From a virus, in the IMG/VR virus record IMGVR_UViG_3300045988_125278: a stretch of DNA of 64,000 nucleotides; one strand, written 5' to 3'. The notes under the pieces were generated by a model. It worked only from the letters and a program-made list of their open reading frames with translations. It did not search any database and was not told the origin of the DNA. Made by a program: the position numbers and the translations under genes. Of this stretch, positions 5,222-38,634 are shown piece by piece. The first letter of the stretch is position 1. Every line of letters begins with the position of its first letter.

Positions 5222-5394
5222 AAATGATTTCCTCCTAATAGGTTTTTTAAGTCTATTAGTCGTAGTGTCAATTATTAAAAATAATAAGCAGCCCTATCTA
5301 CAATTTCGTAATCTTCTATAATAATCTAAGGACTAATATTATTATTCCATATATTTCGTTCGCATTTACCAACGATATTAATTGTCACATAACC

Positions 5395-7023
5395 CTATTC
5401 AGAATACAATTTCTCGTATTCCTCCTCGGACGACTTAAACTTGATTAAACTGATGCCATCTGGCATAGTTATCTTCAAGGTAGGATTTTTATCTTTTGAC
5501 ATTAAAGTTAAGTTATTTGATGCAACTTTTACTCCTTCAACGGCAATAGATGCTTCTTCTACCCCTTGGCCCCAAAGTGGTTTAAGTTGAGCAATATCAA
5601 TGATATCTTTTCCAACTAAATCATTAGTGTGATAAATAAAATCAACACTATAAATTGGGGTGAAATCAAAATCTTGTAAAGCAGAATTCGCATATTCAAT
5701 AAATTTATCAAAATTATCATCAATAATACCAAATCCAAAAGCGTTAGGATGTCCTTCCGCATACATAATTAGATTTGATTTTTGACAAAATTCTCTAAAG
5801 TCTTTAAGTGCGGATTTGTCGTATCCTCTGCCGGAGCCTTCCCAACAAATTTGTTGAGTTTCTTCATCTATTGTTTTATTAAGAATTAAAACAGGACGTT
5901 GATATTTGCTCATTAATTGATTGGCCATTAACCCAGTCAAATTTTTGTCAGCAGCAAATCCATCTAACTTAATTCCTAAGATTTTATTACTTAAAAGATT
6001 TTGATTTACGATTATCTATTCAATTTTTTCCAAGCTAGTGTCTCTGATTTTAGTTTGCCTATTCTTGATATTAGTACAATTACGACAAGCTTGTTCTACT
6101 CTTGTTTCTGCTTGACCTTTACATCCACGTTTTGTTGAAGGGACAAGTTCGTATCCCTTAAAATCAAGCATTGACTCGAATAGCATGAGCTTTTCTTCTT
6201 GCGTCCCAACACGAGTAGTTGCATTAACTAAAGGAGCAATATAGAAAGCTACTCCAATAGGCGTAATCTCATTATTAAAATGAAACTAATCTCTATTGAT
6301 TATGCCTCTGAAGTAAGGATTGGTGATTTGTTGTAAGCCTTTATTAATTAAATGTTTTGTTTCAAAATCACGCATATCCATCATGTCGGCCACCATTCCA
6401 AGAGCAACTAAATCCAATATATGATCCGCATACCGAACATTCATAAGTTCATCAATATAACAACAAAACTTATAAACCATTCCTACACCAGATAAAGATT
6501 TAGTTGGATAATCACATAATTGGTTGTTAATAATACAAGCATACTATGATATTTTATCAGCTTCATGGTGGTCTATTACCAACACGTCAATACCATTTTT
6601 ATATAAATATTCGTGTTCTAAATAATCATTTGATGAAGAATCTGGAGCAATTACTAATTTAATATCTTTATCAATACTATCTGGTATAATTCCGTGTTGT
6701 TTTCCTGCATGGACACGATAAAAAATATTGTTTTGCACAAACGCAGGAAAAAGACAGTATAAGTAATTCATGAGTGCGGCCGCCGAAGTATAGCCATCAC
6801 AATCACTATCTACCTATATAAGAACTTTGTCATTTTGTGCAATATGTTTGACGAGCATTTTTGCACCACTTTCTATTCTATCAATAGTTGCTGGTTCGAT
6901 AATGTCATCATCAGTGGTATTAAGATAATGAGGAATATCTTGTAATTTAATTCCTCTATTGGTTAGCACCTGTTCGACCGCTGAATACTGCGGGATGCGA
7001 GGGGCTTTTAGTTGATAGTCCAT
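5395..7023 (-). CDS. DHH-family phosphoesterase / RecJ-like exonuclease (TAG-recoded; may extend to about 5278 through further TAGs)
   Basis: DHH motif LVIDHHEADK; segments 6814-7023, 6544-6771, 6286-6480 and 5395-5940 are in one frame joined by TAG (cta at 6814, 6544, 6286, 5395). Confidence 0.65.
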
Positions 7024-10219: not shown

Positions 10220-11252
10220 GCTTGTATGAATATAGTCATGGCACGTTATTCTTATATTTCTATAAGCGCTGACTATCTCTTACCCTCTAAGTAAATAGAG
10301 AGGAAACCATTTCGGCATTTAACTCACTTCGTTTCCTAAAATGAGACTACGTATCAATAGTAGCCCTACTTCCCCGCCCGGAAGGCCTGGGGAATAGTCG
10401 ATACAGGTTATTTAGACGTTTTTCCAAGTTCTTTTATTAATTATATCAGCAATTGTACCTTTAGATACACCATATTTTTCTGCTAATTTGTCATAAGATA
10501 AATTTGTTTTTTCTCTATCTTCTCTAATTTGTTTAACTATATTAGCAGTTAACTTAGTATGGCGCCCTTTTTGAAATACTTCTGGCATAATTAATCCATA
10601 TCTTTTTCCAGTCCAAATATTTAAAAATGAATTATAATGTAATCTATTTACATATTTCTTTTTATATATTTCAGTAGGACTTTCTTTATTTAGATATGCT
10701 TTTCTTAATTCAATAACTTCTTCCTCTGTTAATTTAGCCTAACCCCAAATTTCTTTTTTTCTATATTCTAATGTTTTTGGCTTTTTACAATTCTTTCCGC
10801 CATCTTCAACATTATATCCATTGGGGACTTTTGAATTAAATTTATTTATATAATATATTTCAAGATTATTTAAAATCTCTACATCATCAATATCCTAAAC
10901 TAAGATTTCATAAGAGAAATTTTCATAACCATATTTTCTAAAAGCCTAATGTAACAATGAATTATACTCAATACTTTTAGGATTTTTATAATTACTTTTA
11001 TGACATCTAAATCTCTATTCAGGATTTATTGTTTGACCTATATATTTTTTATTATTTATTTTATTAGTATAACAATAAATAATACCCATTTAATCACTTC
11101 CTTCATTTTTATATGAAAGAAGTCAGAAGTTATTTGACTATAATCGTCCAAATTTTCCCACGGGATTCCCATGCGTTTTCCGTTTAGGGTTCCCCGTTAG
11201 CCTATTCATTTAAATAGACCCCTAGCGATAACTAGGAAAAGTTTTTCATTAT
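10220..11252 (-). mobile_element. group I intron (family copy A, boundaries +/-30 nt) in the DnaB-like helicase gene
   Basis: Splits a contiguous DnaB homologue; conserved core blocks shared with copies B and C (AAAAACUUUUCC..., GGCUAACGGGGAA, AAUCCCGUGGGAAA, CCUGUAUCGACUAUUCCCC...GGGG hairpin, AGAUAGUCA S-like element); contains a GIY-YIG ORF. Confidence 0.6.
10422..11089 (-). mobile_element. intron-encoded GIY-YIG homing endonuclease (4 in-frame TAGs)
   Basis: MGIIYCYTNKINNKKYIGQT...INPE(TAG)RFRCH...YGYENFSYEIL; NUMOD-like C-terminus. Confidence 0.8.
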
Positions 11253-16640: not shown

Positions 16641-17897
16641 CCGCGTTTAATATGTTGTTTCCAACGGTCAGCAATATTGCAAATTATTTTATAATTTTGA
16701 CTATCTTTTACTGTTAAAATTTTAACAGGAAACCATTTCGGCATTTAAAGGACTTCATCTCTTAAAATCCTACTACGTATCAATAGTAGCCCTACTCCCC
16801 TGTCCAGAAGACCGAGGGGATAGTCGATACAGGTTCTTTGATTAACGTGCTGGATAATCATAATTTTTTATAAGATATGACTCTCCTTTATTAATTTTAC
16901 TAACTGTATCACGATGTATATTATATTTAATACCAATATCAGACATTGATTTAGAACTATTTCTTAAATCTGATAAAATATTTTTTACTTCTTCAATAGT
17001 AAAATTCTGATTATTCCTAACATTTTTATTTCTAATAGGATAAATATAATTACCATTTTCTTTAAATAAAGTTCCTTGATTAATTGCTCTAATTACCTTT
17101 AAAGGGACTTTATACTTTTGAACTAAATCTGTTTCAATCTATAAATCCCAACGATACAATAAATCTTCCTTTAAATTTAATAATTCCTATTCATTAAGAA
17201 AATAATCTAAAATATTATCTTTTTTCGCAAAATCATGATTATTTTGTCTTAATGGATATGAAAGATTTGGATTAAAATATGTATTTCCTTGAGATATATT
17301 CAAAATAGTATTTTGACTAACTTGATATAAATTAGCAATATCTTTATAAGATAATTTAGTATTATTTATTAACAAATTTATAATTTCATTTAGTTGCTAT
17401 TCATTGAATTTAGAATTACAATTTTCTATTCCTCGTTTGCCAGAAACATTTCCATTTTTTAATATATTATATCCTATTGTTTTATCTGTAGCATTATAAA
17501 AATTAATCCATTTATCTTCTATCTCATCAAGCTATAAAATATCAGAGACCTATTCTAATATTTCAATTGTAGCTTGGTGTTTTTTTAAAGCCTAATCACA
17601 AATTTGAATATTTTTATGATTATGTTCATTGGCTCTAGACTAAATATTTAAAGCCTAACCAATATAAATTTTACCATTATCATAATTAATTTTATAAATA
17701 CCACAAATTTTTAAATTGTCATTAATGTTAGTAATCATTGTTGCTTCCACCGTCCTTCTATATATTTTTAATTTTTATGGAGGATGGATTAATCAAAGTT
17801 TCCCACGGGATTGATTAAAGTTAATTTTCCCCGTTAGCCGGCCATTTCCAAATTTTGGTAATTGACAGACCCCACTGATTAGTGGAAAAGTTTTTCA
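16641..17897 (-). mobile_element. group I intron (family copy B, boundaries approximate) interrupting a GIY-YIG-domain gene
   Basis: Shares 5' and 3' core blocks with copies A and C; separates the GIYKITNLENQMCYVGQA half from the R..H/ENF..E half of one GIY-YIG domain. Confidence 0.55.
16852..17738 (-). mobile_element. intron-encoded GIY-YIG homing endonuclease (about 8 in-frame TAGs)
   Basis: MITNINDNLKICGIYKINYDNGKIYIG(TAG)A...; HTH/NUMOD-like C-terminal repeats. Confidence 0.75.
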
Positions 17898-24030: not shown

Positions 24031-24990
24031 TGACTAGTTCTTCGCTCCGGCTAACGTATTAACTGCCATCATCACGCCTACCTTTTTGAAAGTATGTATC
24101 AATAATACTTCCTACTCCCCGACAAAGGGGATAGTCGATACAGGATTAAACTACGATATTTTTCCAATTCTAATAACTCCATATATTTGTAAAAGAACCA
24201 TATGTAAGTTTATTAGAATAATCTTTATAAACTTCTCTTATATTTTCTCCATTTTTACGACGCAATCTTATTTGATAAACATCTTGTTCGGTCATTTTAG
24301 AGCGTCCATTTTTACTTCCCTAATTAGAAGTATTATGTTTATGAAAATTTTTATTTTCAATTGTATATACTTCTGGCATAATATTTTTCCAAGTATCACC
24401 ATTCCAAATTTTATGGAAGCCAGATTCACCAATTAAATTTTTATAATCTTCATAAACTTCATTTTTTCTTTCTTGATTATTATAACGAGTTCTAATATTA
24501 ATAACATCTTGTTTAGTTAATTTATGACTCGGATGACTTTCTTCAGTATTAAATTGCCCTCCAGGAGTCATATTATACTAATCAGGATAAGTATTATAAT
24601 ATTTTATATAATACTATTCTCTATCATTAAGTTCTTCGATAGAACATTCTTCTAATATCTCAAAAGAAAAATTATTTATTCCATATTCTAATATATCTTT
24701 ATATAACTTTTTATTTTTTTCTCTATACCAGTTATATGATTTTTTATGTTCTCTAAAACGCTATTCTATTTGTGTGCTTTGTCCTATATAAGATAAGTTA
24801 TTTATTTTATTGGTTATTTTATAAATACCAATCATTTTAATTACCTCACTAATTATAAGTAAGATAATATCGTAGTTCTTCCCACGAGATTATCTCCACT
24901 AATATTTAACGCTCATTCATTTCAATTTTTCCTGAAATGTCCTAAATATTAGCAAGACTGCCTCGTTAGCCGCCAACTGGAAAATTTTAC
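24000..24990 (-). mobile_element. group I intron (family copy C, boundaries approximate) in the GyrB-like topoisomerase gene
   Basis: Splits the GyrB homologue; conserved blocks CUUUUCC-hairpin, GGCUAACGAGGCA, AAUCUCGUGGGAAG, CCUGUAUCGACUAUCCCC..GGGG hairpin, ACUAGUCA. Confidence 0.55.
24157..24835 (-). mobile_element. intron-encoded GIY-YIG homing endonuclease (about 5 TAGs)
   Basis: MIGIYKITNKINNLSYIGQSTQIE(TAG)RFREH...YGINNFSFEILEEC. Confidence 0.75.
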
Positions 24991-26798
24991 CAATTCGCGA
25001 CCCCGCCGATCAGCGGAAAAGTAGGTAAGGGCCAGACTTCCTCGTACCCTTTCATACGTCCTAACTCAAAAGATCGGTTCATAGTTTTTCTGAATGTTTC
25101 AAGAGCAACGTCATCTTTAAGATATTTAATATTCGTGCCCCAAGTCGCTTTATAAAGAGGTGGAACCGCCGCGTAAATATAACCTTTTTTAATTAATTCA
25201 GGCGCAAACTTCCAAATAAATGTAAGAAACAAAATACGAATATGACTACCATCAACATCGGCATCCGCTGTAATAATAATCTTACCATAACGTAATTTGG
25301 ATTCATCTACAATTACTTTACCATCTTTAACTTCAAGGCCAAAAGCATCAATCATCGCACTAATTTCTTTATTTCCTAACGCTTTGTGCAAATCTGTCTT
25401 TAAAGTATTAAGAATTTTACCTCTTACGGGTAAAACTGCTTGTGTATTGCGGTTGCGAGCTTCCTTAGTGGGGCCTTCTGCGGAACGACCTTCAACAATA
25501 AAAATTTCACATTCGCTCCTATTTTTACTATTGGCATCACTTAATGTGCCGGGTAAAATAGTTCTTTTCTTCGTATCAACTTTACGAACGGTTTCTTTAG
25601 CCTTTTTCGCTTTTTCACGGGCCGCACGCGCCAACATTGCCTTATCTACAATAGCTTTAGCATCTTTTGGATTATTGTCAAGCCAAACTTTTAAATCTTT
25701 TGATACAAGGCGTTGAACAATAGTTCTTGCTTCACTACTGGATAGAACATCTTTAGTTTGACCAGAGAAAACCGGGTCAGGCATAATAAATGAAAGAACA
25801 AGACTTAATCCTTCTTTGAGTTCTTCACCAGTGATATTAGCATCTTTCTCTTTTAAAAGACCTTTATCACGAGCGTATTCATTAATAGAAGTAGTAAGTG
25901 CTGTTCTAAAACCGGTTAGATGTGTTCCACCACTATTAGGAATTGAATTAGTATAAAGTTTATAAGTATCGCTATAGGTATCATTATACTCCATAGCAAT
26001 TTTTACACCAATTCTATCTTCAATATTTTCAGTATAAAAAATTGAAGTAAGAGAAGTTTTATTGCTATTTAAATCTTTAATATAATCAAGAATACCATTT
26101 TTTGAAGTAATTTCTTCTTCTGGCTTATCAAGATAAGTAAAATGAAATACCATACCAGGAGAAAGATAAGCTAATTCTTGAATTTGTTTTCTTAAAGCAT
26201 CATAATCAAGAAGAATACCTTCTTTAAAAATGCTTTCATCTGGTAAAAATTTAACCCAAGTTCCAGTCTCTTTACCGGCCCATTTTTCTTCTTGATAATC
26301 TTTTAATTTTCCTTTTTCAAAAGACGCAACAGCATGTTTACCATCGCGGAAAGATGCAACTTGAAAATAACGAGAAAGAGCGTTAGTGGCTTTAGCGCCA
26401 ACGCCGTTCATACCGCCAGATGTATTATATCCAGTTTTTCCATTACTGTCAAATTTTGCACCGGTATGAAGTTTAGTATAAATATTTACCAATGTTTCAC
26501 TACCGTCTTTAGCTTTTCCAAAAGGAACACCACGTCCATTGTCGCGGATTTCAACATAACCATCTTTAGATACTGAAATATCGCAACGAGTACAATGACC
26601 ATTTAAATATTCATCAACTGCGTTTGAAATAATTTCAAGAGTAATATGTTTAACTCCATCAGGCCCAGTAGAACCGATGAACATACCAGGTCTAAGACGA
26701 ATTGCTTCCATCCCTTCTAAAGTTTTTATATCTTTAATACCATAATCATCTTTTCCTCTTTTGAGGATAATTTCTTGACTCAATCTAAATACCTCCAA
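24987..26798 (-). CDS. type II topoisomerase GyrB-like subunit (ATPase + TOPRIM), 5' exon; TTG start
   Basis: GHKL ATPase region HITLEIISNAVDEY...GMNGVGAK; TOPRIM IVEGRSAEG; frame ends in intron sequence at 24987. Confidence 0.8.
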   Translation of the reverse strand: MEVFRLSQEIILKRGKDDYGIKDIKTLEGMEAIRLRPGMFIGSTGPDGVKHITLEIISNAVDEYLNGHCTRCDISVSKDGYVEIRDNGRGVPFGKAKDGSETLVNIYTKLHTGAKFDSNGKTGYNTSGGMNGVGAKATNALSRYFQVASFRDGKHAVASFEKGKLKDYQEEKWAGKETGTWVKFLPDESIFKEGILLDYDALRKQIQELAYLSPGMVFHFTYLDKPEEEITSKNGILDYIKDLNSNKTSLTSIFYTENIEDRIGVKIAMEYNDTYSDTYKLYTNSIPNSGGTHLTGFRTALTTSINEYARDKGLLKEKDANITGEELKEGLSLVLSFIMPDPVFSGQTKDVLSSSEARTIVQRLVSKDLKVWLDNNPKDAKAIVDKAMLARAAREKAKKAKETVRKVDTKKRTILPGTLSDANSKNRSECEIFIVEGRSAEGPTKEARNRNTQAVLPVRGKILNTLKTDLHKALGNKEISAMIDAFGLEVKDGKVIVDESKLRYGKIIITADADVDGSHIRILFLTFIWKFAPELIKKGYIYAAVPPLYKATWGTNIKYLKDDVALETFRKTMNRSFELGRMKGYEEVWPLPTFPLIGGVANW

Positions 26799-27529
26799 AT
26801 ATAATTTTTATGGGTATTTCTTTTACCTCTACAAACAGCGGATATAGTAGAAGAATTTCCTCCACAAAATTGTGCTGCTAATTGTAAACTATCGAATTCT
26901 TTTATAAGATTATTATTTTTATCAAATGCTCCTACTTTACGGCTTGTTTTTATTATTCTATTAGACTAAATTTGATTAGTCTTTTTTTCAGGTTCAATAA
27001 TTTGATTTTCTTCATCTAAAAATCTAAATATTCTATTTCCTGTAGTTAGTCTAATCCCATTACATACATTACTAATTTTAAATCTATCTAAATTAGTCTA
27101 TTCTCCCGCTTCAGCCAATGAATTCCAAATATTTAAAATATTTTTATCTTTATCAATTTCACAAACTTTTTTTCCATATTTTTTTCTTTTTGTATTACTC
27201 ATTTTTGAAGCAATTTTAGGATCAAACATAGGACTTTCTGTATTATCAGTCTAATTATATCCTTTTGGAAAAATACAGTCTTCTTTAATAATATAATCAT
27301 GCTCTATTTTAATCATATCTTCCCAATTTTTAGCATTACTAATAATTTCAAATGTAAAATTATCTATCCCGTATTCACGGAAATCTTGCATCAGTGGATA
27401 ATTATAATGATGATCTTTCGGATTTTTAGAAGCTCCAATATGATGTCTCCAACGTCTATGCACATCAATCGAAGAACCAATATATATTTTATTATTTATT
27501 TTATTAGTAATTTTATAAATTTGATACAT
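26781..27529 (-). mobile_element. free-standing GIY-YIG homing endonuclease (3 TAGs) overlapping the topo gene start
   Basis: MYQIYKITNKINNKIYIGSS...HRRWRHH...YGIDNFTFEII; C-terminal NUMOD/IENR-like repeats. Confidence 0.75.
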
Positions 27530-29029: not shown

Positions 29030-30330
29030 TTACACCAACCCTTTATCTTTCATAATTCTATAAAGAACTACAATCATTTCTTCACGAGTCATAAATTTTT
29101 TATACATTTTACGATTTAAATTATCGCCTTTAATATATCCTTTACTTTCAGCCCAAGTTCTTTCCGTATCAGACCAAGAACTTGCATTTTTTTCGGCTTG
29201 TTGATTTAAATAAACTTCCATCATCTCATTAAATTTATCCTAAGTCATATCTTCATCCTCCTCATTAATATTTATATTATCACCAATTTTTTGTTTAAAT
29301 AACTACCATTGGTAATCGCCACTTGTTCTATAATAGCTATTCATGTCAGTTCCGCATAATGGACGAGGGCATAATTTACCAGTCACATCATAGTGGCGAA
29401 TAACGCGGTTCGCTGGTATATTGTATTTCTACATTAATTGCTTTACTAATTGTACCGTATTTTCTAATGCTCTTGGATCAAAATACCAATCAGTATCACT
29501 GGCTACAATATTAGATTTATTTATTTTACAGGGTCTTACTTCAATTCCAATAGAATTGGCATTTCTACATTCAGGATGCTTATATCCTTTTCTTGTGCCA
29601 CAGTGCCAAGCAATATCTTCATCTTTAACGCTACGATAAATAATATCTTTTTCATCAACACAATAATGAGCTGATGATTTAGCGACAGGATTTTTAAAAT
29701 AATTACTAATATTTTTTGCAGTCCCTAAAGAACCAAAATAATGTATTACAATATATTTTATTTTTCTATTATTACCTTTTTGATAATTAGATGTTGTTAA
29801 ATTATCTACAATTTTCATATCTTCACCTTTTCCTATAAATTGATCATATATTTCAACTCCATAATATAATCTCTACTATTGGATTTTTAAACTCTAATCT
29901 TTTGGTCGTTCAAACTATGTTAAAACTATATTTGAAGCAGTCTATATATCTTTACAATTTATTAAAGTATTCCAAACGGTAGGATAATATGTAGAAAGTT
30001 GATAAATTAAAAATTCAAGTTGTGTATTTAAGTTTCCTATTGAAGTATTTTTCTTTTTTGTAAAATCATATAATTGTTTTTTAAGACTCCAATAGGTCCA
30101 TTGAGCTAAACCATATCCAGCTTTATCATAAATGAAATTAGTATATTTACCATTATCTACTTGTTTTGTATACTATTCATCATTTAATCCAAGTGTCTTT
30201 TCAAAACTATTTTGAAGATTTTTTGGATTAAAATTTGATTCAGCTTTTAAGTTTCCCATTAGCCCGGCTGTTCCATAAGGATTTTTTATTTGTTTATATA
30301 AATAATTCCAAGCTATTTCAATATTAGTCA
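29030..30330 (-). CDS. multi-domain endolysin: lysozyme-like domain + N-acetylmuramoyl-L-alanine amidase (Amidase_2/PGRP) + C-terminal binding domain; 8 in-frame TAGs
   Basis: GTAGLMGNLKAESNFNP...YGLAQWTYWS; IVIHYFGS...AHYCVD...IAWHCG...SIGIEV...RHYDVTGKLCP; ORFs 29429-29818 and 29030-29224 are joined in frame through TAGs. Confidence 0.7.
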
Positions 30331-30393
30331 TATTATCCTCCTTTCTATAAAATAAAAAAGAAAGAGAAGAAGTAAATCTTCTCTTTCTTATAA

Positions 30394-32385: not shown

Positions 32386-32487
32386 AGTAGTAGAACTCCT
32401 TTCTATCTATTTCTATAAATATATTAACATAAAAATTATTAAAAAGCAAAAAAATAAAGGCGAAAGCATTATACTTTCGCCTTTATT

Positions 32488-33780
32488 TTAATTTAATAAT
32501 TCATCTATCCATTCTTGCTTCATATTATTTGGAAATTCTTCGTCTATATTATGTTTTTTATAATATTTATTCCAAAATTCAATATTGGCAAGAGCGCGAG
32601 CTTTATGCATAGGACAAATATAAGTAACTCTTTTATTAAGAATTCCAGTATCTTGATAATTATATGCTTGACACCAAGCACAACCATTAGCAATAGGACA
32701 TTCACGACATTCGTCAGAAGATTGAGTATAAGAATTAATTGCTTTTAATTCTTTTGTTAATTGTTTTTGTTTTTCTGTTGTTGCTATTTCATTTTTATTT
32801 ACATTTCCTATAATAAGAGGTGGGACGGAATCGCCCAGAGCATCTTCCATATATCGTAAGCAGGGGTATAAATTACCAGTATAATTCATAGCAATCATAC
32901 TTCCATTTCCGCCGCACCAATTCTATAGATCATCTTTATTAGTCCAATCTTTTGGTCTAAATAATTTCAAATCTGGATATTCAAAAAATGAAATATATAC
33001 ATCTTCTTCTAAATTATTATCAAGGAGATATTGTCCTAATTCTTGTAATTGTTTATAGTAAATTTTGGCGTGTTCTAAAGTCCAACCTTTTTCAAAAATT
33101 ACATTCCCTAATATAGAAGTAAATCCTATGTCTAAAAGAGCTTTTACGGCATCATTTAAATACATAACATTATCAGGAGATAAAGTAATTTTTGAACAAG
33201 GATATTCTCCGGTTTTTTTACGCCAATCTTTTATTGCTTTTACAACAATATCATAACTACCTGACCCATCAGGGAATTTTCTACAAGCATCATGCAATTC
33301 TTTATTACCATCAATACTAATAGAAACAGATAGCCATTGCTTATATTTATCTAAAAATTTTTGTACTTTTGGATCAAAATATAATGTTCCATTAGTACAA
33401 ATTAAAAATCTTGTAAAATAAATTAATGGACTGTTCATTTCAATTAATTTAGAAATTGTATAATCCATTACTTTATCTATTAAATCTAAATTTAAAAAAG
33501 GTTCTCCACCAATAAAATCAAAGACTAAACCTATAATATTATCTGGGTCAAAGTAATCATTTTTCTAAGGATTTACTATTAACATATCAATATATTTTTT
33601 AGCTGTTTCAAAATCCATTAAATGATTTTTTTTACAAGTTTGATAACAATAACTACATCTTAAATTACAAGCGTCAGTGACCTGTAAAGTTATATCAAAA
33701 ACTTTATCGCTTTCATTTTTCCATAGTTCTGGATATAATCTTTGAATTGTATCACTATACTATTCGAATTTACGTCTCAT
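32488..33780 (-). CDS. radical SAM / SPASM-domain enzyme (anSME/peptide-maturase-like); 2 in-frame TAGs
   Basis: CNLRCSYCY radical-SAM cluster motif, GGEPFL; C-terminal CRECPIANGCAWC...ICPMH SPASM-like Cys cluster; three track ORFs are in one frame joined by TAG at 32923 and 33468. Confidence 0.7.
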
Positions 33781-34085
33781 TCAGCATTATCATTAATTGT
33801 TATTGTAATAATTTTTGCTTGGAAGTCAATACTCCAATAGGCATTATTACCATATTTTTCTAAATCATAATATTTTCCAACTTTATTTCTAATTTTATCA
33901 TATTCAATAAATTTTTCAACGTATTCTTGATGATATCTTTTATAATTATCAGTATCCATATTATTAAATGAAGTGCTATTCATCATATAAGTAATAATAC
34001 TTTGACGAGCAAGAAGATCTTGATAAGCTCGTTCTAATTTATCATTTAATTCTACATTATTAGCATTTACTGTAATTGTTTTCAT
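33777..34085 (-). CDS. hypothetical 102-aa protein between precursor-like gene and rSAM enzyme (possible partner/RRE-like)
   Basis: ORF, co-oriented, overlapping stop/start. Confidence 0.35.
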   Translation of the reverse strand: MKTITVNANNVELNDKLERAYQDLLARQSIITYMMNSTSFNNMDTDNYKRYHQEYVEKFIEYDKIRNKVGKYYDLEKYGNNAYWSIDFQAKIITITINDNAE

Positions 34086-34207
34086 TATTTTTCTCCTTTT
34101 TATCTTATAAATTAACTTTTTAAAATTTTAGAATATAAAGACTTTAAAGCAGTAATTGCTTTCTGCATTTCAGATTTAGTACAGACATTTCCATTATAAG
34201 AAGTGTT

Positions 34208-34873
34208 CTACATTTTAGAAATATTTGTGAATATTTCATTTTTTAAGTTTGTATTAACTTTACTGTTAGAAGAAACTTTTGTAGGTAAAGTACTATATCC
34301 ACGCCTAGATAATTCTTTATTTAACATAGTATAAATATTTGCAATATCAGCAGCATATAAAACGATTCTTAAATTAATAGAATTATAAAGATTTACATTA
34401 GCTGAAGTGGTACATCCATTATCGCAGCCTCCCGTACAATTGCCAGTACAAGCAGAACAGTCATGCCTACAACTAGCACTACATCCAACACATCCGCCAG
34501 AACAGCTTCCACTACAATCGGTGCGACAACTAGCACTACATCCAACACATCCGCCAGAACAGCTTCCACTACAATCGGTGCGACAACTAGCACTACATCC
34601 AACACATCCGCCAGAACAGCTTCCACTACAATCGATACTGCAAGAACCGCCACATCCAGAGCAACCTACATCACATCCGCCTGAACAACTATTACTACAA
34701 ACTCCTCCGCATCCAGAGCAATTTCCATCACAGTCTCCTCTACAACTTCCTTGGCATTGGCTAGTGCCGCAAGTTTCACACATAGAACAATTACCGCCAC
34801 AACCATGGTCACATCCATTACTACAGCTTATAAAGCAAGTTCCGACACAACCCTATGTAGTACAATTAGCCAT
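34208..34873 (-). CDS. Cys/Gly/Ser-rich repeat protein (about 221 aa, one TAG at codon 7) with 19-aa tandem repeats CSGSCSGGCVGCSASCRTD
   Basis: ATG at 34871-34873 with AAGGAGGA RBS; CxxC/CxxxC-dense N-terminal 160 aa; non-Cys C-terminal 60 aa. Confidence 0.6.
34466..34640. repeat. 57-bp tandem repeat, about 3 copies, inside the Cys-rich gene
   Basis: acatccgccagaacagcttccactacaatcggtgcgacaactagcactacatccaac repeated at 34490, 34547, 34604. Confidence 0.85.
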
Positions 34874-34887
34874 ATGTTATGTCCTCC

Positions 34888-35340
34888 TTACATTAAATTT
34901 TTTACAATATTTTCTAATTCATCTAATTTGTTAAATAATTGATATTTAATAAATATGCTACTTAATAAAGAATAATATCTTAAAGAATTATTTTCTTTTA
35001 TTTTATAATTCTTAAAGAATTCTATATTATTTTCTTTTGTGTCTGAATCTAACTTTACTTCTAAAAATAGATAATCAATAGCAGTTAAAACTTGAGTATT
35101 ATTTTTTAGATAACTAATTTTATTAATGAAATCTTGTAATTTGTCAATCTATTCTAAATTTCTAAGATTTTCAAAATTTTGAATATTATAAAAAATTATT
35201 GCAATAGTTTCTTGATATTCGATATCAGAAATTTCATTTAACTATAAAATCAATTCATTGTCATCAAATAAAATACCATTTTCTAACTCTTTAGAAACTT
35301 TAATTTTTAAAAGTAAAACATCTTTTTCGGATAGAGACAT
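34888..35340 (-). CDS. hypothetical protein (2 TAGs)
   Basis: ATG 35338-35340; reads through TAGs to TAA at 34888. Confidence 0.35.
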
Positions 35341-35530
35341 TTTATTCATCCTTTCTTTAATATAAATTATAGCAAAATTTTTTTGATTTTGCAAATTTTA
35401 TTTACCTAATTTATTTATAAATACTGGGTTTATTTTTAATGAAAAATGACCATTTAACATTTTATTAAAAAAATTTCTATGGGCGTGAGTGATTGGAACT
35501 ACGGCCGATCGCGTTGATCAGGGATAAAAA

Positions 35531-35564
35531 AATAGACACTATGAAATAAATCATAGTGTCTATT
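35531..35564 (-). terminator. hairpin terminator after flotillin gene
   Basis: aatagacactatga-aataaa-tcatagtgtctatt. Confidence 0.55.
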
Positions 35565-35568
35565 TAAA

Positions 35569-36954
35569 TTACTTATTCAATGCTTTTGTAAGCATCTCTT
35601 TAATGTCGATGCCATTTTCAGACATTGCTTCGATGACCTGGTTTGCGGAACCCATAACATCCTTTACAAGACGAGCAGAGTTTCCATCACCATACTGGAC
35701 GATCTTATCCACATTGGTAAGAGGGGCGGCCGCGTTTGCCACGATTTGAGGCATTGCATTAAAATACATTTCAATGATAGAGGCTTCACCCATCTTCTTC
35801 TGTGCTTCTGCTTTCTTGTCGATTGCTGTAGCTTCAGCTTCACCAACGGCCGCAATACCAGCAGCTTTCTGCTCGGCTGCGAACTTTTCCGCTTCAGCGC
35901 GAGCACGCATAGCTTTTGCTTCCTGCTCGATCTCATAAGCCTTAGCTTCAGCATCCTTCTGACGACGAATCAGGTCTGCTTCAGCAGCTTTTTCCGCAGC
36001 ATACTTATCAGCATCAGCCTGCTTACGAACCAATGCAGTCAGTTCGTATTCCTTAAGCTCGATTTCCTTCTGCTTCAATTCAGCTTCACGCTCAGCCTTT
36101 GCGATATTCGCATTAGTTGCGGCAACATCCTTGAGCTTACGCTGATTTTCAGACTCAATGCCGGCGGCTGCCTCTGCCTGAGCTTTCTTAGTATCAGCTT
36201 CCTGCTTCAACTGAGCCTGCTTGATAGCAAGATCGTTATTGCGGATTGCGATTTCCTCAGCGGCCTTAACCTTAGCGTCATTAGACTGCTTAGCATTTTC
36301 CGCACGAGCGACCTCAATCTCACGTTCCGCATTGGACTTAGCGATCGCCGCGTTCTTGCTAATCTGAGCAACATTATCAATACCGAGGTTAGTGATAACA
36401 TCATTATCATCAGAGAAGTTCTGAACGTTAAAGGTAATCAACTCAAGACCATAACGTGCCAGATCAGGAACTGCGTTCTCCTGAACTTTCTCGCTAAACA
36501 GCTTACGATCGCTAACCATATCAGTCAACTTCATCTGACCGACGATCTCACGAATATTGCCCTCAAGAAGGTCGTTAATTTTACGAGAAATTTCATCACA
36601 ACCTACATTAAGGAAGTTCTGAGCGGCGAGCGCAATCATTTCAGGATCTCTACCTACACGAACGGAAACGGTAGAATCAACACGAACGTTAATGTATTCG
36701 GCAGTAGGAACCGCAGATCCAGTCTTTACATCAATTTGAATAGCTCCGAGAGCAAGCTTATCCAAACGTTCGAAGAAAGGAATCTTCAAGCCAGCTTTAC
36801 CAACAAGAATTCGAGGTTTCTTATGGACACCACTGATGATATAAGCCATATCAGGCGGAGCTTTTACATAACCATTGAGGAAAATGAAAACTACCAGTAG
36901 CGCAATAAGAACTACAGGAATTGCCGGAAGGATAAATGAAATAATAGCGGGCAT
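35569..36954 (-). CDS. flotillin/SPFH (band-7) domain membrane protein; higher GC, TAG-free
   Basis: N-terminal TM; SPFH core; long Ala/Glu/Lys-rich coiled-coil region typical of flotillin/YqiK; hairpin terminator 35531-35564. Confidence 0.75.
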   Translation of the reverse strand: MPAIISFILPAIPVVLIALLVVFIFLNGYVKAPPDMAYIISGVHKKPRILVGKAGLKIPFFERLDKLALGAIQIDVKTGSAVPTAEYINVRVDSTVSVRVGRDPEMIALAAQNFLNVGCDEISRKINDLLEGNIREIVGQMKLTDMVSDRKLFSEKVQENAVPDLARYGLELITFNVQNFSDDNDVITNLGIDNVAQISKNAAIAKSNAEREIEVARAENAKQSNDAKVKAAEEIAIRNNDLAIKQAQLKQEADTKKAQAEAAAGIESENQRKLKDVAATNANIAKAEREAELKQKEIELKEYELTALVRKQADADKYAAEKAAEADLIRRQKDAEAKAYEIEQEAKAMRARAEAEKFAAEQKAAGIAAVGEAEATAIDKKAEAQKKMGEASIIEMYFNAMPQIVANAAAPLTNVDKIVQYGDGNSARLVKDVMGSANQVIEAMSENGIDIKEMLTKALNK

Positions 36955-37825: not shown

Positions 37826-38565
37826 TTAATCACCTATCCTTTCCCATTTTCGTCCACCAACTTTGCTATATCTACTTGATCCAGCGAGACATTTACTTAA
37901 ACTACTTCGATCTACTTTTTCTTTTCGAGCAGCTTCGCTAATACTATCATAGTAAACAATATCATTTGGGTTATTTATATTAATTCCTTTTATTTTGGTA
38001 CGTCTTTTTCGAGTTTTTGCTTTTGGAATTATAACATTATTATTTTCATCCAATGATCGAAAAATTAAATTATTACAACTATGAGCTTCTCCATCACATA
38101 TTTTTTTTATTGTCGTAGCTCTTTTATCGCCATCCCACCCTTGAGCTCTTGCAGCTTCATGATAAGAACTATAAATAGAAATAATTTCATTCTATTCATT
38201 TACTAAAGCACATTTTTTACTAATTTTTTTTATATGCTTTTGAGTATTCTCAAGAGTGATAATATTAGATTTAGTATTTTCAGTCTAATTATATCCATTA
38301 GGACATAAAGAATTATATTTTAAAATCATTTGATGCTCATAAGTTTCCATCGAATTAACATCATTAAAATCATTTCTTAAAATTTCAAAAGTAAAATTTT
38401 CTACTCCATATTTTCTAATAGCACACTATAAAGGATAAAAATAATTTGAATTATTTAGATTAAAAGCATTATTAATGTGCTATTTCCATCTAGTTTCAAC
38501 ACGAGTACTTGAGCCTATATAAGATTTTTTATTAATCTAATTAGTAATTTTATATACAACATTCA
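37826..38565 (-). mobile_element. free-standing GIY-YIG homing endonuclease (about 6 TAGs)
   Basis: MNVVYKITN(TAG)INKKSYIGSS...YGVENFTFEIL; C-terminal NUMOD-like repeats. Confidence 0.7.
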
Positions 38566-38634
38566 TTTATTAATCACTCCTTCATATATTAATGAGAAAA
38601 TAATTAATAAAATTAACACTTCTTGACCCACAAT

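What the first reader, a model, noticed from the sequence alone, without database searches (positions are those of the whole stretch)
32488..34873. RiPP-like cassette: Cys-rich tandem-repeat protein co-oriented with a radical-SAM/SPASM enzyme
A 221-aa protein (MANCTT(TAG)GCVGTCFISC..., strong GGAGG RBS) has its first 160 aa almost entirely C/G/S, including three tandem 19-aa repeats CSGSCSGGCVGCSASCRTD. It is followed by a 102-aa ORF and then a radical-SAM enzyme (CNLRCSYCY, GGEPFL) with a C-terminal SPASM-type Cys cluster. This is the architecture of SCIFF/ranthipeptide/sactipeptide systems, where a SPASM rSAM enzyme installs thioether crosslinks on Cys-rich peptides. Such cassettes are not a described feature of phages. 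The product could be a crosslinked structural protein, a metal-binding protein or a toxin/anti-defence peptide. All three genes contain in-frame TAGs, so they are native and translated only under amber suppression.
Basis: partly seen in the sequence, partly recalled or inferred. Interest (0 to 1): 0.8.

Follow-up and report, generated by a model that had tools for sequence, protein, structure and literature searches.

The report
Phage Cys-repeat protein with radical-SAM maturase
A roughly 195-kb gut-type phage carries a four-gene operon in which a radical-SAM enzyme of the curated but biochemically untested "CXXX-repeat" family sits next to its 40-cysteine target protein; the same module is common in phages and prophages of anaerobic Firmicutes, where it sits among tail-fibre genes, so the target is probably a chemically stapled virion fibre and not an antibiotic peptide.

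Summary
The Cys-rich protein is 253 aa, not 221: its "stop" TAG is Gln in relatives and the ORF continues to a conserved end. The 102-aa ORF has no in-frame TAG.

The radical-SAM enzyme passes the curated cut-off of NCBIfam TIGR04115, "radical SAM peptide maturase, CXXX-repeat target family" (405.8 bits, cut-off 350). The 102-aa ORF is a divergent homologue of that system's small partner, TIGR04116 (hhalign 91.7%). The Cys-rich protein has 40 Cys at 3-5-residue spacing, mostly C-x3-C. So this is a member of a known, bioinformatically defined, experimentally uncharacterised system.

The system is not rare in phages. At least 512 IMG/VR loci and at least 563 loci in species-representative genomes, mostly Clostridia, encode relatives. 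In the sampled loci, phage baseplate, tail and lysis families are the commonest neighbours. In some siphovirus-like contigs the Cys-repeat protein has a conserved anchor domain, a CXXX "shaft" and a swappable C-terminal tip, as a tail fibre does.

Best reading: a late, amber-recoded cassette that installs many thioether cross-links in a fibre-like structural protein. The chemistry and the virion location are inferred, not shown. I rate it a new member of a known kind, of moderate to high interest.

The parts
35366..35395 (-). sigma-70-like promoter (TTGCAA, 17 nt, TG-TATAAT) upstream of the operon
   Evidence: Consensus scan, 10 of 12 matches with an extended -10. The total number of such sites in the region is not above the shuffled expectation, so this is only suggestive.
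35530..35565 (-). terminator-like hairpin ending the upstream SPFH/flotillin-like gene; marks the 5' border of the unit
   Evidence: 15-bp stem followed by a T run
34888..35340 (-). first operon gene, 150 aa, 2 in-frame TAGs, function unknown
   Evidence: Conserved in all related viral contigs whose locus extends that far. No Pfam, NCBIfam or PHROG hit.
34112..34873 (-). CXXX-repeat protein gene, 253 aa (in-frame TAGs at codons 7 and 222 read as Gln)
   Evidence: Weak hits: TIGR04114 repeat 13.4 bits (cut-off 20) and phrog_6085.
34412..34864 (-). Cys lattice: codons 4-154, 40 Cys spaced 3-5 residues apart (mostly C-x3-C)
34469..34634 (-). 57-nt x 2.9 perfect tandem repeat (three 19-aa units); copy number differs between related phages
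34115..34399 (-). about 95-aa non-Cys C-terminal domain (...LYAADIANIYTMLNKELSRRGY...LYSKILKS), predicted helical
   Evidence: 73 of 95 columns invariant among relatives. hhalign 66%, E 6e-5 to the N-terminal domain of prophage CXXX proteins. The same repeat + C-domain architecture occurs in L055, L059, L066, L078, L080 and L081. The AF2 model is low-confidence.
   Evidence: The aligned residue is Q (a standard Gln codon, not TAG) in L005-L008, and the ORF continues conserved.
33777..34085 (-). 102-aa partner protein, a divergent TIGR04116-like CXXX-system protein; no TAG; its stop overlaps the rSAM start (ATGA)
   Evidence: TIGR04116 scores only 13 bits. hhalign gives 91.7%, E 8e-7 against small ORFs of other CXXX loci, including a TIGR04116-positive one. 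AF2 pLDDT 85.
32488..33780 (-). radical-SAM/SPASM maturase, 430 aa, TIGR04115 family; 3 in-frame TAGs (codons 7, 72, 286)
33646..33669 (-). CxxxCxxC radical-SAM cluster motif (C38, C42, C45)
32614..32916 (-). SPASM region with seven family-invariant Cys (289, 307, 358, 361, 367, 370, 389)
   Evidence: Pfam SPASM 20.8 bits (gathering score 21.5). The seven Cys are invariant in alignment A8.
32451..32489 (-). intrinsic-terminator-like hairpin starting at the rSAM stop codon (18-bp stem plus T run)

Best explanation
This is a phage copy of the CXXX-repeat protein-maturation system.

Shown:
- A four-gene operon encodes a 150-aa protein of unknown function, a 253-aa substrate, a 102-aa partner protein translationally coupled to the enzyme, and a TIGR04115-family radical-SAM/SPASM maturase.
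- The substrate has a 40-Cys lattice (mostly C-x3-C) followed by a roughly 95-aa helical domain.
- Three of the four genes need TAG read as Gln.

Inferred mechanism:
- The maturase lacks the N-terminal RRE domain of CteB. I propose it is recruited, together with the 102-aa partner, by the non-Cys domain of the substrate, which would act as an uncleaved built-in leader or follower.
- It then uses 5'-deoxyadenosyl radical chemistry to convert many of the Cys thiols into intramolecular thioether (sactionine/ranthionine-type) cross-links to neighbouring small residues.
- The result would be a rigid, redox-insensitive, protease-resistant rod.

Inferred role:
- By analogy with relatives, the product is a virion component associated with the tail fibres. 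It would be made late in infection of an anaerobic host, where disulfides cannot serve as cross-links.
For: Family assignment:
- TIGR04115 scores 405.8 bits against a cut-off of 350, and the match is full-length.
- About 50%-identical proteins are named 'radical SAM peptide maturase, CXXX-repeat target family' by NCBI.
- The rSAM motif and seven SPASM Cys are invariant.
- The closest solved structure is the thioether-forming CteB (5WGG, E 9e-22). The alignment starts at CteB residue 97, after its N-terminal domain (that this domain is the RRE is from memory).
- The next-best NCBIfam models are all Cys-thioether maturases: PapB, SCIFF and CcpM.

Partner protein: hhalign 91.7% to small ORFs of other CXXX loci, plus the ATGA overlap with the rSAM start.

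Substrate:
- The Cys lattice is conserved while the X positions drift.
- 137 of 160 related loci carry a protein with at least 12 CxxxC units on the rSAM strand.

Structural role:
- In two Caproicibacterium prophages the order is Baseplate_J, Mu gp48, tail fibre, Cys-rich protein, small ORF, rSAM, GH25 endolysin.
- Baseplate, tail and lysis families are the commonest neighbours in 19 sampled bacterial loci.
- In siphovirus-like contig L142 the order is tape measure, Dit, minor tail protein, virion structural protein, Cys-rich protein, small ORF, rSAM.
- There the Cys-rich protein is anchor domain + CXXX shaft + C-terminal tip. Anchor and shaft are 93-95% identical between contigs, while the tip is only 16-60% identical. 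That is the pattern of receptor-binding fibres.

Other points:
- No protease, exporter or immunity gene lies in the operon, and the substrate has no signal peptide.
- The in-frame TAGs make expression dependent on amber suppression. The endolysin also carries them (9 TAGs).
Against: - No experiment exists for any member of the family, so the thioether chemistry is extrapolated from paralogous families scoring far below their own cut-offs.
- The window protein has no tip domain, and its domain order is reversed (repeats first).
- In this window the cassette is not next to recognisable tail genes. Its neighbours are SPFH/flotillin-like, PhoH-like, and an endolysin about 2 kb downstream.
- The site between tail fibres and lysis genes is also a classic moron site in temperate phages.
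- Homology between the window's C-domain and the prophage N-domain is only moderate (66%).
- The 102-aa protein is not RRE-like, so the recruitment step is conjecture.
- TAG codons also occur in non-late-looking genes such as a RecJ-like gene and homing endonucleases. 'Late' is therefore not proven.
Confidence: 0.6

Rival explanations
1. The cassette makes a released bioactive RiPP-like product (a bacteriocin, toxin, anti-defence or signalling molecule). It would be carried as cargo (a moron) and not as part of the virion.
For: The enzyme belongs to the RiPP-maturase superfamily. More distant relatives in Clostridium sit next to tandem 59-68-aa Cys-rich peptides that look like true precursor peptides (L085, L086, L090, L093-L095, L099). 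The site between tail-fibre and lysis genes is a common cargo site. In the window the neighbours are not tail genes.
Against: The operon has no leader peptidase, ABC exporter or immunity gene, and the substrate has no signal peptide. Substrates in the family are 123-650 aa with up to 145 Cys. Some have a tail-fibre-like anchor/shaft/swappable-tip layout. In-frame TAGs should prevent expression from a silent prophage in a standard-code host.
Confidence: 0.15
2. The enzyme does modify the Cys-repeat protein, but not by thioether formation. Alternatives include Cys to formylglycine or dehydroalanine, epimerisation, C-methylation, or another C-C or C-S link.
For: SPASM enzymes catalyse many reactions. 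anSME (78 bits), QhpD (106 bits) and cyclophane formers (50-60 bits) all give partial matches. No conserved acceptor residue is visible: the X positions are S, G, T, A, N or D without a fixed pattern.
Against: After TIGR04115 itself, the best-scoring characterised families and the closest solved structure are all Cys-thioether formers (PapB, SCIFF/CteB, CcpM). What is conserved in the substrate is the Cys itself.
Confidence: 0.15
3. The Cys-rich protein is a metal- or Fe-S-binding (metallothionein-like) protein, and the adjacent rSAM enzyme has an unrelated substrate.
For: The protein is 25% Cys over its first 160 residues, with small residues between the Cys.
Against: A CXXX-repeat protein sits beside the rSAM gene in 137 of 160 loci across distant lineages. 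Curators named the family for that pairing. The C-x3-C / C-x2-C lattice runs on for hundreds of residues, which is unlike the compact clusters of metallothioneins.
Confidence: 0.07
4. The ORFs are low-complexity artefacts or pseudogenes broken by TAG stops.
For: Under the standard code both the rSAM gene and the Cys-rich gene are interrupted.
Against: With TAG as sense the ORFs are full-length and match family models end to end. TAG positions carry Gln in relatives and in the family consensus. The Cys columns are conserved.
Confidence: 0.01

Closest known systems
NCBIfam/TIGRFAMs CXXX-repeat peptide modification system (TIGR04115 maturase, TIGR04116 partner, TIGR04114/04117 Cys-repeat targets). 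It is defined bioinformatically. From memory, it comes from Haft & Basu 2011; I could not retrieve that paper.
   Same: The maturase passes the curated cut-off (405.8 vs 350). The gene set is the same trio: target, small protein, maturase. The target has the C-x3-C lattice.
   Different: The small protein and the repeat score below their curated cut-offs (13 vs 50; 13.4 vs 20). The TIGR04116 model fits a Bacteroidota-like, TAT-signal variant such as L002 (104.6 bits). Here the non-Cys domain is C-terminal. The genes sit in an amber-recoded, roughly 195-kb phage. No biochemical function is known for the family.
PapB / freyrasin (ranthipeptide maturase, NF047865)
   Same: A SPASM rSAM enzyme acting on a substrate with many regularly repeated Cys motifs. 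It is the second-best NCBIfam hit (194 bits).
   Different: The score is far below the cut-off (340). From memory, PapB links Cys to Asp/Glu in CX3D/E motifs of a short peptide; here there is no regular acidic acceptor and the substrate is a 253-aa protein.
CteB / SCIFF maturase (PDB 5WGG; TIGR03974)
   Same: It is the closest solved structure (E 9e-22). It shares the rSAM core and the two-cluster SPASM domain, and it forms thioethers.
   Different: The window enzyme lacks CteB's first ~96 residues (from memory, these include its RRE domain), and a separate 102-aa protein is encoded instead. The TIGR03974 score is 134 against a cut-off of 425.
QhpD/QhpC (TIGR03906) and anSME (TIGR03942): rSAM/SPASM enzymes that modify proteins and not exported peptides
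   Same: They are a precedent (from memory) for rSAM cross-linking or modification of a protein that stays part of a larger assembly.
   Different: The matches are only distant (106 and 78 bits, against cut-offs of 453 and 349). The substrates are unrelated.
Modular phage tail fibres / receptor-binding proteins (conserved N-terminal anchor, repetitive shaft, exchangeable C-terminal tip)
   Same: Relatives in L142, L160 and L163 have exactly this layout and occupy the RBP position after tape measure, Dit and a minor tail protein.
   Different: The shaft is a Cys lattice paired with a dedicated rSAM enzyme, unlike a beta-helix, coiled coil or collagen repeat. The window protein itself has no tip domain.

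Membership tests
TIGR04115 radical SAM peptide maturase, CXXX-repeat target family | Whole-protein HMM score at or above the curated cut-off (350 bits), full-length match | tested here: met
   405.8 bits, E 2e-121. Residues 30-402 match profile positions 4-359 of 359.
TIGR04115 radical SAM peptide maturase, CXXX-repeat target family | CxxxCxxC radical-SAM cluster motif and a SPASM domain with seven Cys for two auxiliary clusters | tested here: met
   C38/C42/C45 and C289, 307, 358, 361, 367, 370, 389 are all invariant in a 15-sequence family alignment. Pfam Radical_SAM scores 42.1 bits. Pfam SPASM scores 20.8 bits, just under its gathering score of 21.5.
TIGR04115 radical SAM peptide maturase, CXXX-repeat target family | Encoded next to a protein with tandem CXXX repeats | tested here: met
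   The 40-Cys lattice protein lies 332 nt upstream (stop codon to start codon) in the same operon. 137 of 160 related loci show the same pairing.
TIGR04115 radical SAM peptide maturase, CXXX-repeat target family | SAM-dependent modification of the Cys-repeat target | not testable with these tools
   This needs anaerobic reconstitution and mass spectrometry. I found no published assay for any member.
TIGR04116 CXXX repeat peptide modification system protein | HMM score at or above the curated cut-off (50 bits) | tested here: not met
   13 bits, E 0.084, although the alignment is near full-length (14-94 vs 10-89 of 90).
TIGR04116 CXXX repeat peptide modification system protein | Homology to the roughly 90-100-aa protein encoded beside the maturase in other CXXX systems | tested here: met
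   hhalign 91.7%, E 7.9e-7 over 91 columns against a profile that includes the TIGR04116-positive L002 protein (104.6 bits). There is a shared W-x-[IVL]-[DN]-[FY] C-terminal motif (Y/F for W in L001).
TIGR04114 Cys-rich repeat (rSAM target, CXXX) | Repeat HMM at or above the cut-off (20 bits) | tested here: not met
   13.4 bits over 4 stretches. The C-x3-C pattern itself is present 28 times.
SCIFF / ranthipeptide / sactipeptide maturases (TIGR03974, NF047865, NF035951, NF045574) | HMM score at or above each family's cut-off | tested here: not met
   Scores of 134, 194, 71.5 and 57 bits against cut-offs of 425, 340, 720 and 625.
RRE / PqqD-type recognition element (proposed for the 102-aa ORF) | PqqD/RRE sequence match or a winged-helix fold (three strands then three helices) | tested here: not met
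Anaerobic sulfatase-maturing enzyme (TIGR03942) | HMM score at or above the cut-off (349) | tested here: not met
   77.9 bits.
Phage tail fibre / receptor-binding protein | Position in the tail module, and an anchor/shaft/exchangeable-tip architecture | tested here: inconclusive
   Met for relatives. The window protein lacks a tip, is not next to tail genes, and matches no tail-annotated family.
Phage tail fibre / receptor-binding protein | Presence in the virion | not testable with these tools
   This needs virion proteomics or cryo-EM.

The most novel reading that the evidence does not exclude
The CXXX-repeat system is a virus-building chemistry. A radical-SAM enzyme would staple the shaft of a phage tail fibre (here a tip-less fibre or whisker) with dozens of thioether bridges. 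Phages of strict anaerobes would thereby get a redox-proof substitute for disulfides. This would be the first RiPP-type post-translational cross-linking shown to be part of virion assembly. It would also assign a function to a family with thousands of members (7,468 proteins at E <= 1e-20 among the 8,000 candidates scored).
Probability: 0.35. Interest if true: 0.8.

Novelty: new member of a known kind. Interest (0 to 1): 0.55.

Why it matters
The family has been curated and named, but I found no biochemical or biological study of it. The context gathered here points to one testable function: rSAM-installed cross-links in phage tail-fibre-like proteins of anaerobic Firmicutes.

If that is correct, several things follow:
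- RiPP chemistry would be linked to virion architecture.
- It would explain why antiSMASH-type tools may report 'ranthipeptide-like' clusters inside prophages.
- It would offer a naturally hyper-stapled, modular protein scaffold.
- In this phage the cassette also depends on TAG-to-Gln recoding, which ties its expression to the phage's own decoding switch.

Tried and rejected
Literature:
- Full-text searches for 'CXXX repeat', 'TIGR04115', and combinations of radical SAM, SPASM, phage, tail fibre and cysteine-rich returned nothing relevant.
- Four candidate papers held no mention.
- Haft & Basu 2011 could not be retrieved.

Sequence searches:
- Megablast of 10 kb against GenBank phages found no match.
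- tblastn of the non-Cys domains against GenBank phages found no match.
- Word-indexed protein searches with the C-domain and the 102-aa ORF found only near-identical relatives.
- The exhaustive HMMER search with the C-domain profile used only 71 positions and gave 6 hits.
- A genome scan with the single rSAM protein as query found nothing. The alignment-based scan worked.
- PHROGs had no family for the non-Cys domains or the 150-aa ORF.

Structure:
- The AF2 model of the C-domain was too poor (pLDDT 48) for a fold search.

Ideas rejected:
- That the cassette is SCIFF, PapB or anSME: scores are below the cut-offs.
- That the 102-aa ORF is an RRE.
- That apparent fusions of tail fibre and Cys-rich protein in L043, L052 and L056 are real. 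They are artefacts of reading a TAG stop as Gln in standard-code genomes.
Full report
**1. What is in the sequence**

The window is 32% GC. Essentially all real genes lie on the minus strand, and it reads best with TAG as a sense codon. ORFs of at least 100 aa cover 48.5 kb under the standard code and 65.4 kb with TAG as sense. Several genes are restored to full length in this way.

Between two terminator-like hairpins (35565-35530 and 32489-32451), and behind one promoter-like site (35395-35366), lie four co-oriented genes:
- A 150-aa ORF (35340-34888).
- The Cys-rich gene (34873-34112), with an AAGGAGGA ribosome-binding site.
- A 102-aa ORF (34085-33777).
- A 430-aa radical-SAM gene (33780-32488), whose ATG overlaps the previous stop codon (ATGA).

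**2. Checking the observation**

The Cys-rich protein has 40 Cys in residues 4-154, spaced 3-5 residues apart and mostly C-x3-C. C, G and S make up 65% of the first 160 residues.

Two details are wrong.
In four related phage contigs that codon is CAA/CAG. In all eight contigs the frame continues through a conserved 31-residue tail to TAA, giving 253 aa.
- The 102-aa ORF has no in-frame TAG. The Cys-rich gene has two, the rSAM gene three and the 150-aa ORF two.

TAG = Gln is supported in three ways:
- Gln at rSAM codon 7 in L008 and L010.
- Gln at Cys-rich codon 222 in L005-L008.
- The family consensus DLQNWCGG at rSAM codon 286.

No suppressor tRNA lies in the window.

**3. It is real and under selection**

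Eight IMG/VR contigs of 47-197 kb, five of them 163-197 kb, carry the same unit at 87-99% amino-acid identity (rSAM). In the Cys-rich protein 34 of 36 Cys columns are invariant, against 45 of 104 non-Cys columns in the lattice. The C-terminal domain is 73 of 95 columns invariant. Length varies between 234 and 253 aa through gain or loss of 19-aa units at different places.

**4. Identity of the enzyme**

NCBIfam places the rSAM protein in TIGR04115, 'radical SAM peptide maturase, CXXX-repeat target family', at 405.8 bits (cut-off 350), full-length. The next models all fall far below their cut-offs:

| Model | Score (bits) |
|---|---|
| PapB | 194 |
| SCIFF maturase | 134 |
| CcpM | 128 |
| QhpD | 106 |
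| anSME | 78 |

Other evidence:
- Pfam sees Radical_SAM and a borderline SPASM domain.
- C38/C42/C45 and seven C-terminal Cys are invariant across a 15-member alignment.
- Proteins about 50% identical are named with the TIGR04115 name by NCBI and JGI.
- The closest solved structure is the thioether-forming CteB (5WGG, E 9e-22). The alignment begins at CteB residue 97, so the window enzyme lacks CteB's N-terminal domain (the RRE, from memory).

**5. The 102-aa ORF**

It scores only 13 bits on TIGR04116 (cut-off 50). However, a profile of it and its close relatives aligns over 91 columns with small ORFs found beside the maturase in other loci. One of those is a Bacteroidota-like protein (L002) that hits TIGR04116 at 104.6 bits. 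hhalign gives probability 91.7%, E 8e-7.

**6. The substrate family**

Scans with the rSAM alignment found at least 563 loci in species-representative genomes and at least 512 in IMG/VR. The best 80 genome loci are almost all Clostridia.

In 137 of the 160 loci retrieved, a protein with at least 12 CxxxC units lies on the rSAM strand. There are 131 distinct proteins, of 123-650 aa with 17-145 Cys. Cys spacing is 4 residues (4403 cases) or 3 (1785 cases). The X positions are almost only S, G, T, A, N or D, with no fixed acceptor residue.

Architectures found:
- Most have a roughly 105-aa N-terminal domain (I-[TS]-x-x-x-h-x-x-L-K-x-x-h-x-x-E-h-x-R-R...) followed by the repeats.
- A minority (16 distinct proteins) have the window's order: repeats, a conserved C-[DN]-N-[GA]-C-[ST] junction, then a C-terminal domain ending ...L[YM]xxx[IL]xx.
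- The two non-Cys domains align at hhalign 66%, E 6e-5. This is suggestive but not conclusive.

**7. Genomic context in relatives**

- Caproicibacterium: two prophages carry the order Baseplate_J, Mu gp48, tail-collar fibre, short fibre, Cys-rich protein, small ORF, rSAM, a 105-aa ORF, GH25 endolysin.
- Pfam scans of neighbours in 6 + 13 further bacterial loci: the commonest families are Baseplate_J (2 + 5), YQBQ, Mu_Gp48/DUF2612/Tail_P2_I, Phage_tail_fib (2 + 2), Dit, sheath initiator, amidases, holin and terminase.
- L001, L043, L052 and L056: the ORF just upstream is a tail-fibre-type protein.
- L142 (a ~58-kb siphovirus-like contig): the order is tape measure, Dit, minor tail protein, 796-aa virion structural protein, Cys-rich protein, 109-aa ORF, rSAM.

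In L142 and its relatives the Cys-rich protein is a single TAG-free ORF made of an N-domain, a ~235-aa CXXX 'shaft' and a 112-168-aa non-Cys tip. Between contigs the N-domain plus shaft is 93-95% identical, while the tip is only 16-60% identical. That mosaic is the signature of receptor-binding fibres.

**8. Context in the window**

- Upstream: an SPFH/flotillin-like gene.
- Downstream: a 145-aa ORF, a PIN-PhoH protein, then a lysozyme-amidase endolysin (9 TAGs) and a membrane protein that could be a holin.

The cassette is therefore near the lysis genes, as in the prophages, but not beside recognisable tail genes. The structural module of this roughly 195-kb phage lies outside what I could read.

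**9. Mechanism**

Shown: family membership, operon structure, translational coupling, the conserved Cys lattice, dependence on amber recoding, and phage tail-module association across the family.

Inferred:
- The enzyme cross-links Cys to neighbouring residues as thioethers. All the nearest characterised relatives do this.
- The non-Cys domain, with the 102-aa protein, recruits the RRE-less enzyme.
- The product is an uncleaved structural rod. There is no protease, exporter or signal peptide.

The restriction of top hits to anaerobic Firmicutes fits a redox-insensitive substitute for disulfides made by an oxygen-sensitive enzyme.

Rivals (a released bioactive product, other chemistry, metal binding) are not excluded. 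Short peptide-type substrates do exist beside more distant relatives in Clostridium.

**10. Novelty**

The system is already a curated family, so this is a new member. It belongs to the less common repeat-first architecture and sits in an amber-recoded large phage.

I found no paper on the family or on its phage association. GenBank phage records almost lack it: the best is 37% identity in unannotated faecal scaffolds, and there are no hits to the non-Cys domains. The tail-fibre reading is therefore a concrete hypothesis that appears not to have been tested.

Noticed in passing
window 55972-61397 (tRNAs) and 34112-34873: The phage tRNA cluster encodes Cys(GCA), Gly(UCC), two Ser, Thr and Lys. 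Cys, Gly and Ser dominate the Cys-rich protein. Its Gly codons are 23 of 37 GGA, against 70 of 317 in nine other long genes (Fisher p = 1e-6). GGA is the codon read by the phage tRNA-Gly(UCC).
   Followed up: partly
window 49298-51796 and 51913-53478 (minus strand): An 832-aa protein has major-vault-protein domains (MVP_shoulder 77 bits, Vault_3 33 bits). The next gene encodes a DUF2828/DUF7788 protein. Both are TAG-free. A vault-like pair is unusual in a phage.
   Followed up: no
whole window: TAG recoding is mosaic. Genes with many in-frame TAGs: the endolysin 29030-30331 (9), GIY-YIG-type genes 16842-17750 (8), 24146-24835 (5) and 37826-38566 (5), a RecJ-like gene 5275-7023 (6), and a Gly-rich ALK_LTK_GRD protein 62075-63637 (4). 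Genes with none: the 603-aa topoisomerase-subunit-like gene (by eye, not tested), a DNA ligase, an RNA-ligase-like gene, the MVP-like gene and the SPFH gene; the 817-aa GyrA-like gene has one. ARAGORN found no suppressor tRNA in the window.
   Followed up: partly
window 10412-11089, 16842-17750, 24146-24835, 26780-27529, 37826-38566, 60599-61243: At least six paralogous genes have GIY-YIG-like N-termini (M..IYKITNKINNK.YIG). By eye they look like homing endonucleases scattered between core genes. I did not confirm this with a family search.
   Followed up: no
window 35569-36954: An SPFH/Band-7, flotillin-like membrane protein (461 aa) is encoded immediately upstream of the cassette, with its own terminator.
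   Followed up: no
L018 4888-8317 and L013 6400-10850: Other TAG-recoded phage contigs carry the cassette. L018 adds a second, 312-aa radical-SAM gene and has two Cys-repeat proteins. L013 (a 196-kb contig) has two tandem small partner ORFs and a 300-aa, 50-Cys substrate on the opposite strand.
   Followed up: partly
L002 2222-6270: A Bacteroidota-like variant: the Cys-repeat protein carries a twin-arginine signal peptide. It is followed by the rSAM gene, a second SPASM-like protein, the TIGR04116 protein, and ORFs that by eye look like TatA and TatC (not tested). This points to an exported product in that branch.
   Followed up: no
L085, L086, L090, L093-L095, L099 (about 1.2-1.9 kb downstream of the rSAM gene): More distant rSAM relatives (36-41% identity) in Clostridium and relatives (e.g. 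Sporosalibacterium) sit beside 59-68-aa Cys-rich peptides (MKHLFDQKST...CSGCSTMCGDSC...), in tandem copies in L085 and L086. These look like a true precursor-peptide branch.
   Followed up: no
L011 9326-9643, L019 8338-8628, L021 8319-8588, L142 10325-10678: In four of the prophage and viral loci inspected, a conserved 89-117-aa ORF directly follows the rSAM gene. The window has a terminator at that position instead.
   Followed up: no
phage records (e.g. MH221128, KX397368): Jumbo phages of Salmonella and Erwinia, and some Campylobacter phages, encode rSAM/SPASM proteins 25-27% identical over 85-91% of the query. They are annotated only as 'radical SAM superfamily protein', and their substrates are unknown.
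   Followed up: no
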